Origin: a virus
Lineage: Duplodnaviria > Heunggongvirae > Uroviricota > Caudoviricetes
IMG/VR virus record: IMGVR_UViG_2645727743_000017
DNA length: 4,070 nucleotides
Reading direction: 5' to 3' (one strand)
Notes under the pieces: generated by a model
The model's input: only the letters and a program-made list of their open reading frames with translations
Databases searched by the model: none
Told to the model about the DNA's origin: nothing
Shown here: positions 808-894 of the stretch, one piece after another
How positions within the stretch are numbered: the first letter of the stretch is position 1
How the letters are laid out: every line of letters begins with the position of its first letter
Program-made: the position numbers and the translations under genes

Positions 808-821
808 AGGAATACCCTTTT

Positions 822-838
822 TCGTACTTTCAGTACGC
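822..838. promoter_or_regulatory. Operator candidate OR-a: TCGTACT-TTC-AGTACGC (17 bp, near-perfect inverted repeat)
   Basis: Core GTACT-N3-AGTAC read directly; the same half-site recurs at OR and OL with 23-24 bp centre-to-centre spacing. Confidence 0.55.
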
Positions 839-866
839 ATTATGATTGAACTGAAAGTTTTTGCAA
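839..866 (-). promoter_or_regulatory. Candidate PR (minus strand: -35 TTGCAA = + 861-866, 16-bp spacer, -10 CATAAT = + 839-844)
   Basis: Hexamers read directly; they sit about 25-30 nt upstream of the cro start at 807. Confidence 0.5.
845..861. promoter_or_regulatory. Operator candidate OR-b: TTGAACT-GAA-AGTTTTT
   Basis: Core GAACT-N3-AGTTT matches the consensus at 9 of 10 positions; centre is 23 bp from OR-a and lies between the PR -35 and -10. Confidence 0.45.
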
Positions 867-877
867 GTGCTTTAGTA

Positions 878-894
878 TCGTACTCATGGTTCAG
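878..894. promoter_or_regulatory. Weak operator candidate OR-c (TCGTACT-CAT-GGTTCAG) overlapping the cI start codon, with a possible PRM -10 TAGTAT at 874-879
   Basis: Good left half-site, degenerate right half. A PRM -10 at 874-879 would give a leaderless cI mRNA as in lambda, but no convincing -35 was found. Confidence 0.25.

What the first reader, a model, noticed from the sequence alone, without database searches (positions are those of the whole stretch)
808..894. OR region: operators built on a GTACT-N3-AGTAC core with lambda-like 23-24 bp spacing
Three 17-bp candidates (822-838, 845-861, 878-894) share the half-site (T)CG(T/A)ACT in inverted orientation around a 3-bp centre. The centres of the first two are 23 bp apart, the same spacing as lambda OR1-OR2, which would support cooperative repressor binding. 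The candidate PR (-10 CATAAT at 839-844, -35 TTGCAA at 861-866, minus strand) places OR-a over the cro transcription start and OR-b between -35 and -10. The third site is degenerate and overlaps the cI start codon. I do not recognise this operator sequence as that of lambda, 434 or P22, so the immunity specificity may be distinct.
Basis: partly seen in the sequence, partly recalled or inferred. Interest (0 to 1): 0.5.

Follow-up and report, generated by a model that had tools for sequence, protein, structure and literature searches.

The report
Known 933W-type phage repressor operators
The three inverted repeats between the cro and cI genes are real repressor-binding sites, but they are base-for-base the already characterised right operator of Shiga-toxin phage 933W, here sitting in a toxin-free lambda-like prophage, so the finding is correct but ordinary.

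Summary
Window 823-837 (CGTACTTTCAGTACG), 847-861 (TGAACTGAAAGTTTT) and 879-893 (CGTACTCATGGTTCA) are 15-bp dyads. They are identical to the oR1, oR2 and oR3 annotated in phage 933W (NC_000924) and in GQ499361. Two more sites lie in OL (3198-3212, 3222-3236). The motif is far above chance: 4 perfect-rule sites against 0.03 expected, 0 of 500 shuffles. The same three-site layout recurs in relatives from seven genera. The window's Cro is 100% identical to 933W Cro. Its CI is 98% identical, with residues 1-87 (which include the DNA-binding domain) unchanged. Corrections: the sites are 15 bp, not 17. Site 2 is one base out of register, so OR1-OR2 is 24 bp, which is also lambda's value, and OR2-OR3 is 32 bp. 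The inference that this spacing implies cooperative binding is contradicted by published work: 933W repressor does not bind OR1 and OR2 cooperatively, and there is no OL3. The immunity differs from lambda, 434 and P22 but is the known 933W immunity. Already known; low interest.

The parts
823..837 (.). OR1: CGTACTTTCAGTACG, a perfect dyad. It is the strongest repressor site and lies over the predicted PR/cro transcript start.
   Evidence: Identical to the oR1 annotated in 933W (mapped by x = 5669 - y) and to the OR1 of GQ499361. Scores 10/10 on the G-W-A-C-Y rule. Conserved at -56 from the cI ATG in 10 relatives, with symmetric changes at positions 1 and 1'.
847..861 (.). OR2: TGAACTGAAAGTTTT, in the spacer between the PR -35 and -10. 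Its centre is 24 bp from the OR1 centre.
   Evidence: Identical to 933W oR2. Scores 9/10. Nearly invariant in relatives at -32.
879..893 (.). OR3: CGTACTCATGGTTCA, centred on the A of the cI ATG (886). Its right half-site encodes Val2-Gln3 of CI. Its centre is 32 bp from the OR2 centre.
   Evidence: Identical to 933W oR3. Scores 10/10. Conserved at position 0 in all relatives.
839..866 (-). PR: -35 TTGCAA (866 to 861), 16-bp spacer, -10 CATAAT (844 to 839). Drives cro-cII transcription.
   Evidence: The only sigma-70-like hit in 760-940. Equals the 'pR; putative major rightward promoter' of the 933W record. The TTG of the -35 and the -10 are conserved on the minus strand in relatives. The transcript start was not mapped here.
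873..878 (+). Candidate PRM -10 (TAGTAT). It implies a cI transcript starting at or next to the ATG.
   Evidence: Equals the -10 end of the 'pM; putative maintenance promoter' in the 933W record, which maps to window 851-878. TAnTAT is conserved in relatives. Below the threshold of the promoter scan. The geometry relative to OR2 is unresolved.
580..807 (-). cro (75 aa)
   Evidence: 75 of 75 residues identical to 933W Cro. HTH families in Pfam.
886..1593 (+). cI repressor (235 aa; HTH_3 plus Peptidase_S24)
   Evidence: 231 of 235 residues identical to 933W CI, with residues 1-87 identical, including the modelled contact residues S41, K42, K46 and E51.
3198..3212 (.). OL2: CGTACTTGCAGTTCT. It differs from 933W OL2 (CGTACCAATAGTTCT) at positions 6-9.
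   Evidence: Homologous position to the OL2 annotated in GQ499361.
3222..3236 (.). OL1: CGAACTATTAGTTCA, 24 bp from OL2. It differs from 933W OL1 (CGAACTATTGGTTCA) at one base.
   Evidence: Homologous to the OL1 annotated in GQ499361.
3212..3240 (+). PL region with two candidate promoters. One is TTGATA-17-CATTAT (3212-3240). The other is the PR-like arrangement OL2 - GATAAT (3214-3219) - OL1, which has a poor -35.
   Evidence: Promoter scan and reading of the sequence. Which one is PL was not resolved.

Best explanation
Window 808-894 is the right operator (OR) of a 933W-type immunity region. Dimers of the CI repressor encoded at 886-1593, and presumably Cro encoded at 580-807, recognise a 15-bp dyad. 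Positions 2-6 of each half-site read G-(A/T)-A-C-(T/C). Recognition uses helix residues S41, K42 and K46, plus E51. OR1 lies over the PR start and OR2 lies in the PR spacer, so occupying them shuts off the leftward-reading (minus-strand) PR and with it cro, cII and the lytic genes. OR3 is centred on the cI start codon and shuts off PRM at higher repressor concentration. In phage 933W, which has identical operators, an identical Cro and an identical CI N-terminal region, occupancy is set by intrinsic affinities and not by lambda-style pairwise cooperativity. Relative KD in intact OR is 1 : 13.6 : 26.4 for OR1, OR2 and OR3. OL has only two sites, and OR3 is partly occupied in lysogens. This keeps repressor levels low, about 34 molecules per cell, and makes the prophage easy to induce. 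Shown here: sequence identity, statistics, conservation and promoter match. Taken from the literature on 933W: binding, affinities, lack of cooperativity and PRM activation and repression. Inferred: that the window's CI, which has four substitutions outside the N-terminal 87 residues, behaves the same way.
For: The operator 15-mers are identical to the oR1-3 annotated in NC_000924 and GQ499361. CI is 98% identical and Cro 100% identical to 933W, with CI residues 1-87 identical. The motif is highly non-random and confined to OR and OL. The three dyads sit at -56, -32 and 0 from the cI ATG in ten relatives from Escherichia, Salmonella, Pectobacterium, Photorhabdus, Cedecea, Serratia and Dryocola, with CI down to 56% identity. 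In these relatives K42, K46 and E51 are conserved, and OR1 changes symmetrically at positions 1 and 1'. PR is the only sigma-70-like match and equals the annotated 933W pR. Published binding data cover a 15-bp site, five natural sites, DNase I and EMSA affinities, no cooperativity and no OL3 (PMC3317979; PMC5977221).
Against: No binding or transcript data exist for this particular prophage. CI differs from 933W CI at four positions (L88F, F90I, V171I, L232I) in the linker and C-terminal domain, which is where cooperativity determinants would lie. The OL operators differ from 933W's, so OL occupancy may differ. PRM geometry is unresolved. The conserved -10 (873-878) places OR2 at about -32, over any -35, which is hard to reconcile with the reported activation of PRM. 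PMC5977221 says the 933W cI mRNA has a Shine-Dalgarno sequence, and I cannot see one upstream of ATG 886. The primary mapping papers (Tyler 2004, Koudelka 2004, Bullwinkle 2011) could not be read here.
Confidence: 0.93

Rival explanations
1. A lambda-style cooperative switch. CI dimers at OR1 and OR2, 24 bp apart as in lambda, would contact each other and fill both sites together.
For: The centre-to-centre spacing of 24 bp is identical to lambda OR1-OR2. The window's CI has four substitutions in the linker and C-terminal domain relative to 933W, so its behaviour has not been measured directly.
Against: For 933W, with the same operators and spacing and 98% identical CI, OR2 affinity relative to OR1 is the same on separate fragments (10.3) and in intact OR (13.6). 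The authors state that the repressor does not bind the two sites cooperatively (PMC5977221; PMC3317979). The substitutions are conservative (L/F, F/I, V/I, L/I).
Confidence: 0.07
2. A new immunity specificity: the operators and repressor define a heteroimmune group that has not been described.
For: The OL sites differ from 933W's at 5 bases.
Against: OR1-3 are base-identical to 933W, Cro is identical, and CI residues 1-87 are identical. The OL differences lie at positions 6-9, where the paper reports tolerated or modest effects: T or C at position 6, and about 3-fold at the centre.
Confidence: 0.02
3. Chance palindromes or an RNA hairpin or terminator, rather than protein-binding sites.
For: The terminator scan flags 823-837 followed by a T-containing tail. 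A 9-nt inverted repeat links the centres of OR1 and OR2 (I2).
Against: The stem has only 6 pairs and the tail CATTATGATT is not a U-run. A terminator on the plus strand here would block PRE-type read-through into cI. The statistics and cross-genus conservation of the half-site bases, but not of the stem centre, fit a protein site. The 9-nt repeat simply reflects two similar dyads with inverted central triplets.
Confidence: 0.01

Closest known systems
OR of Shiga-toxin phage 933W (oR1, oR2, oR3, pR and pM; NC_000924; studied by Tyler 2004, Koudelka 2004, Bullwinkle and Koudelka 2011 and 2012)
   Same: All three 15-bp operators, their 24-bp and 32-bp spacing, the PR hexamers, the Cro protein and CI residues 1-87 are identical. 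Both have two OL sites 24 bp apart and no OL3.
   Different: There are three substitutions in OR outside the operators (window 816, 838, 845). There are four substitutions in the CI linker and C-terminal domain. OL2 differs at 4 bases and OL1 at 1 base. The stk-containing cargo between cI and OL is replaced by two other ORFs. The N protein is of a P22-like type. The host prophage is lambda-like and carries no stx.
Bacteriophage lambda OR (OR1, OR2, OR3, PR and PRM)
   Same: Divergent cI and cro genes, three dyad operators, and 24 bp between OR1 and OR2. The repressor turns off PR and autoregulates PRM.
   Different: The sites are 17 bp with an unrelated sequence. OR2-OR3 is 23 bp in lambda and 32 bp here. 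In lambda OR1 lies in the PR spacer and -10 and OR2 lies at the -35. Here OR2 fills the spacer and OR1 covers the start. In lambda OR3 lies 19 bp upstream of the cI ATG, and here it is centred on it. Lambda CI binds cooperatively and loops to a three-site OL, which is reported to be absent in 933W.
Phage 434 repressor-operator complex
   Same: According to PMC3317979 it is the closest structurally characterised homologue of the 933W repressor N-terminal domain. It is an HTH dimer on a short dyad (14 bp against 15 bp) with indirect readout of the central bases.
   Different: The operator sequence is different (ACAA...TTGT). 434 repressor binds OR1 and OR2 cooperatively.
Stx phage BAA2326 OR (PMC5977221)
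   Same: Similar OR2 and OR3 occupancy, giving low repressor levels and easy induction.
   Different: It has a lambda-like repressor only 19% identical to 933W CI and asymmetric operators, and it binds OR1 and OR2 cooperatively.

Membership tests
933W-type (imm933W) right operator | Three 15-bp sites with the sequences of 933W oR1, oR2 and oR3 between divergent cro and cI genes | tested here: met
   All three 15-mers are identical to NC_000924 and GQ499361, at the same positions relative to cI and cro.
933W-type (imm933W) right operator | Cognate repressor with the 933W DNA-recognition residues (S41, K42, K46, E51) | tested here: met
   CI is identical at 231 of 235 residues, residues 1-87 are identical, and all four residues are present.
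933W-type (imm933W) right operator | Cognate Cro | tested here: met
   75 of 75 residues identical.
933W-type (imm933W) right operator | OL with only two repressor sites (no OL3) | tested here: met
   Only 3198-3212 and 3222-3236 score at least 9/10. The place where relatives have a third site (3166-3180) reads TTATCTAATAAAATT. The OL site sequences differ from 933W at 5 bases.
933W-type (imm933W) right operator | Repressor actually binds these sites, with the order OR1 > OR2 > OR3 and no pairwise cooperativity | not testable with these tools
   Known for 933W from PMC3317979 and PMC5977221. Inferred for this prophage from sequence identity.
933W-type (imm933W) right operator | Homoimmunity with 933W | not testable with these tools
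   Needs a plating or superinfection test.
Lambda-type cooperative OR | Adjacent operators spaced so that dimers lie on the same face (24 bp OR1-OR2) | tested here: met
   24 bp here and in lambda.
Lambda-type cooperative OR | Pairwise cooperative binding of repressor to OR1 and OR2 | not testable with these tools
   Reported absent for 933W repressor on identical operators.
Lambda-type cooperative OR | OR2 centred near -42 of PRM, OR3 between the PRM -35 and -10, and a three-site OL for looping | tested here: not met
   With the conserved -10 at 873-878, OR2 is at about -32 and OR3 at +1. OR2-OR3 is 32 bp against 23 bp in lambda. No OL3. The PRM start was not mapped here.

The most novel reading that the evidence does not exclude
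The evidence leaves one modestly novel reading open. In this whole repressor family the OR layout is fixed at -56, -32 and 0 from the cI ATG, from E. coli to Photorhabdus, and OR3 is built into the first three codons of cI. OR2 therefore sits on top of the PRM -35 position rather than at -42. If so, the reported 'activation' of PRM could not use the lambda-type contact from -42. It might instead be relief of occlusion by the face-to-face PR. Relatives in Pectobacterium, Photorhabdus and Salmonella phage SI5 also carry an OL3-like site 32-33 bp from OL2, and a Serratia site fits the same layout. The two-site OL of 933W and of this prophage would then be a derived loss, not an ancestral design.
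Probability: 0.2. Interest if true: 0.35.

Novelty: already known. Interest (0 to 1): 0.1.

Why it matters
The operator itself adds nothing new. It is the characterised 933W switch, which controls induction of Stx2 prophages and hence toxin release. The practical point is context. The same immunity module (identical OR, identical Cro, 98% identical CI) sits in a lambda-like prophage that lacks stx and carries nleA. That prophage occurs in about 20 complete E. coli genomes from humans, animals and water. Such strains would be expected to be immune to superinfection by 933W-type Stx2a phages. The shared module also provides homology for recombination that could move immunity or toxin modules between phages. 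Both points are expectations, not tested here.

Tried and rejected
(1) I tried to read the primary mapping papers: Tyler 2004 (PMC524894), Koudelka 2004 (PMC524892), Bullwinkle and Koudelka 2011 (PMC3133280) and Plunkett 1999 (PMC93574). None is held. The mapped PR, PRM and PL starts could therefore not be checked. I relied on the RefSeq 'putative' promoter features and on later open-access papers from the same laboratory. (2) The operator sequences are not printed in the text of PMC3317979, only in figures. Identity therefore rests on the GenBank annotations. (3) Terminator reading of 823-837: rejected as a by-product of the OR1 palindrome. (4) TTGCAA (861-866) read on the plus strand as a PRM -35 would give a lambda-like geometry. 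I rejected it as the favoured model because the plus-strand reading is not conserved (TTTCAA, ACGCAA) while the minus-strand TTG is, and because it would start transcription downstream of ATG 886. (5) Search for an OL3 or other extra sites in the window found none at 9/10 or better. Sites at 8/10 occur at the chance rate of 13 against 11.2 expected. (6) PL assignment: the scan gives TTGATA-17-CATTAT. The alternative OL2-GATAAT-OL1 mirrors PR but lacks a -35. This is left open. (7) The loose motif search with 3 mismatches is not significant on its own.

Full report
What is in the window. The 4070-base window is a lambdoid immunity region. A cII gene lies at 177-473 on the minus strand (Pfam Phage_CII, E = 8e-34). 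A cro-type HTH gene lies at 580-807 on the minus strand. A cI-type repressor lies at 886-1593 on the plus strand (HTH_3 plus Peptidase_S24). Two cargo ORFs follow at 1691-2233 and 2221-2997. Then come a hairpin followed by a T-run at about 3003-3028, an OL/PL region at about 3190-3240, a boxB-like hairpin, and an N antiterminator at 3441-3782 (Pfam N_peptide, E = 5e-26). The finding concerns the 78-bp cro-cI intergenic region.

Checking the observation. The sequence contains three dyads of the form 6 + 3 + 6: CGTACT-TTC-AGTACG at 823-837 (perfect), TGAACT-GAA-AGTTTT at 847-861, and CGTACT-CAT-GGTTCA at 879-893. The centre distances are therefore 24 bp (OR1-OR2) and 32 bp (OR2-OR3), not 23 bp.

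The pattern CGWACTN3AGTWCG with at most 2 mismatches hits four times (823, 879, 3198, 3222) against 0.24 expected, and 0 of 200 shuffles reach four. I also scored positions 2-6 of each half-site by the published 933W specificity rule, G-(A/T)-A-C-(T/C). Four sites score 10/10 against 0.03 expected (0 of 500 shuffles). Exactly five sites score at least 9/10: three in OR and two in OL. At looser thresholds the signal disappears. OR2 is therefore supported by its position and conservation rather than by its score alone.

Identification. The OR region is 98.7% identical to over 100 Stx-converting phages. GenBank GQ499361 ('immunity region; similar to bacteriophage 933W') annotates OR1, OR2 and OR3 repressor binding sites. 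These map to window 823-837, 847-861 and 879-893 with identical sequence.

The RefSeq record of phage 933W annotates oR1, oR2, oR3, a putative pR and a putative pM. With the mapping window = 5669 - locus coordinate, they fall at 823-837, 847-861, 879-893, 839-866 and 851-878. An alignment shows only three substitutions between the window and 933W in 790-910, none of them inside an operator. Cro is identical at 75 of 75 residues. CI is identical at 231 of 235 residues, with residues 1-87 unchanged.

Those N-terminal residues include S41, K42, K46 and E51. The Koudelka laboratory modelled these as the base-contacting residues and tested S41 and K46 by mutation (PMC3317979). The same paper states that the 933W site is 15 bp, that there are five natural sites, and that positions 2-5 are the conserved determinants. 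At position 6, T or C is accepted. The central base pair has a modest effect of about 3-fold.

Promoters. On the minus strand, TTGCAA (866 to 861), a 16-bp spacer and CATAAT (844 to 839) form the only sigma-70-like match in 760-940. This coincides with the pR annotated in 933W. The cro ATG at 807 is preceded by AAGGG, a plausible ribosome-binding site (read from the sequence).

For PRM, the annotated putative pM ends in TAGTAT (873-878). This places the start at or beside the cI ATG, which is exactly the centre of OR3.

Comparative test. I fetched loci encoding CI relatives from one-genome-per-species contigs and from Salmonella phage SI5. I scanned the 140 bp upstream of each cI start and then the whole loci. 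Ten loci were informative: E. albertii, Pectobacterium, two Photorhabdus, Salmonella (two), Cedecea, Serratia and Dryocola, with CI from 97% down to 56% identical.

All of them have three dyads centred at -56, -32 and 0 relative to the cI ATG. A single 1-bp shift occurs in E. albertii. A gap-free alignment shows where the invariant columns fall: on the half-site cores (G, A, C, T), on the CAA that is the TTG of the PR -35 on the minus strand, and on ATGGT at the centre of OR3.

OR1 changes symmetrically at its outer positions (CG...CG to TG...CA), which preserves the dyad. K42, K46 and E51 are conserved throughout. The hexamer TAnTAT at 873-878 is also conserved, which supports it as the PRM -10. 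This is strong evidence that the sites are functional protein-binding sites with a fixed architecture.

How it works. The mechanism is that of the 933W switch. CI dimers bind OR1 most tightly, then OR2, then OR3, with relative KD in intact OR of 1: 13.6: 26.4. Occupancy of OR1 and OR2 represses PR. The repressor activates PRM and then represses it at about 4-fold higher concentration through OR3. OR3 is partly occupied in lysogens, so repressor is scarce (about 34 molecules per cell) and the prophage is easily induced (PMC5977221; PMC4848623).

The same authors report that the repressor does not bind OR1 and OR2 cooperatively. The OR2/OR1 ratio is 10.3 on separate sites and 13.6 in intact OR. 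They also report that there is no OL3. The spacing comparison itself needs correcting, because lambda OR1-OR2 is 24 bp and OR2-OR3 is 23 bp. Whether the four substitutions in this CI (L88F, F90I, V171I, L232I) alter anything is untested.

OL. The window has two OL sites 24 bp apart: CGTACTTGCAGTTCT (3198-3212) and CGAACTATTAGTTCA (3222-3236). They are homologous to the OL2 and OL1 annotated in GQ499361 and to the corresponding 933W sequence, but differ from them at four bases and one base respectively. The differences lie at positions 6-9. There the 2012 paper reports tolerated or modest effects, including about 3-fold for a central G-C, which this OL2 has. No third OL site exists.

What remains unclear. 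With the conserved -10 at 873-878, OR2 (centre 854) lies at about -32, over any -35. In lambda it lies at -42. This is hard to square with direct activation. PMC5977221 also says the 933W cI mRNA has a Shine-Dalgarno sequence, citing Tyler 2004, and I see none upstream of ATG 886. Reading TTGCAA on the plus strand would restore a lambda-like geometry, but that reading is not conserved. I could not read the primary mapping papers, so this stays open. Which of two candidate hexamer pairs is PL is also unresolved.

Context and verdict. The window occurs at 99-100% identity in about 20 complete E. coli genomes. In strain PS1Thumoskin9 the prophage is lambda-like, with lambda-type head and tail genes, J and Lom. 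It has no stx between Q and the holin, and it carries nleA at its end. So this is the well-known 933W immunity module in a non-Stx lambdoid prophage.

It is wrong about cooperativity, and the immunity is not a new one. Novelty: already known. Interest: low.

Noticed in passing
window 1-99: The first ~99 bases match the end of an IS3-family element (IS629 transposase region in Stx phage records). In most E. coli genomes carrying this prophage, the sequence left of position 99 is instead the replication gene O. The window therefore comes from a copy in which an IS sits next to cII, as in strain ECO2947.
   Followed up: partly
window 1691-2233 and 2221-2997: Two overlapping plus-strand ORFs lie downstream of cI, in the slot that holds rexAB in lambda and the stk kinase with neighbouring genes in 933W. 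One is 180 aa with a weak DUF6978 hit below the Pfam cutoff. The other is 258 aa with a DUF1828 domain. They are possibly a lysogen-expressed moron or exclusion module. Function unknown.
   Followed up: partly
window 3198-3236 versus L003 (933W) and L001: The OL operators differ from 933W's although the OR operators are identical. OL2 has TTGC instead of CAAT at positions 6-9, including a central G-C. OL1 has A instead of G at position 10, which makes it more symmetric. E. albertii L007 has the 933W OL2 with this window's OL1, so the OL sites assort independently.
   Followed up: partly
L006, L008, L009, L010, L027 (OL regions); window 3166-3180: Relatives in Salmonella phage SI5, Pectobacterium and Photorhabdus carry a third OL-like dyad 32-33 bp upstream of OL2, mirroring the 24/32-bp layout of OR. 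Serratia L027 has a site 55 bp from OL1 that fits the same layout. The window and 933W have no such site, so the two-site OL looks like a derived loss.
   Followed up: partly
window 879-893 / 886-894: The right half of OR3 (GGTTCA) is also codons 2-3 of cI (ATG GTT CAG = Met-Val-Gln). The operator and the N-terminal codons are conserved together across genera, as MVQ or MVR.
   Followed up: yes
window 904-906: Codon 7 of cI is GTG here and in most relatives, ATG in Cedecea and TTG in Serratia. All three are possible start codons. This may be coincidence (Val, Met and Leu are similar residues), but it bears on where cI translation starts if PRM starts downstream of ATG 886.
   Followed up: no
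window 851-886: PRM geometry is odd. The conserved -10 TAnTAT (873-878) puts OR2 at about -32 and OR3 at +1, and there is no visible Shine-Dalgarno sequence before ATG 886. A review nevertheless states that the 933W cI mRNA has one and that the repressor activates PRM.
   Followed up: partly
window 451-464: TTGC-N6-TTGT lies on the plus strand just inside the 5' end of cII. It resembles the lambda CII-binding box (TTGC-N6-TTGC) of PRE, which would read rightward through cro into cI.
   Followed up: no
window 3307-3321 and 3441-3782: A boxB-like hairpin GCGCTGACAAAGCGC (nutL) lies upstream of an N protein with the arginine-rich motif GNAKTRRHERRRKLAIER. From memory this resembles P22 N. The same boxB sequence is present in the annotated nutL of 933W, although the N genes differ.
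   Followed up: no
window 3003-3028: The hairpin CCCGGC-CTCTGC-GCCGGG followed by TTTTCTTT is homologous to the 'tM; putative terminator for pM transcript' annotated in 933W. The terminator scan did not flag it.
   Followed up: partly
L004 / L048 (E. coli PS1Thumoskin9 prophage): The prophage carrying this immunity region is lambda-like and has no stx genes between Q and the lysis genes. It carries the type III effector gene nleA at its distal end. It is a non-Stx prophage expected to be homoimmune with 933W-type Stx2a phages.
   Followed up: partly
L003 (933W), 2421 bp downstream of the cI ATG: A sixth site scoring 9/10, CGTACTAGATGTACT, lies in the cargo region of 933W between cI and OL. It is absent from the window and may be chance, since about 1 such site is expected per 4 kb.
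   Followed up: no
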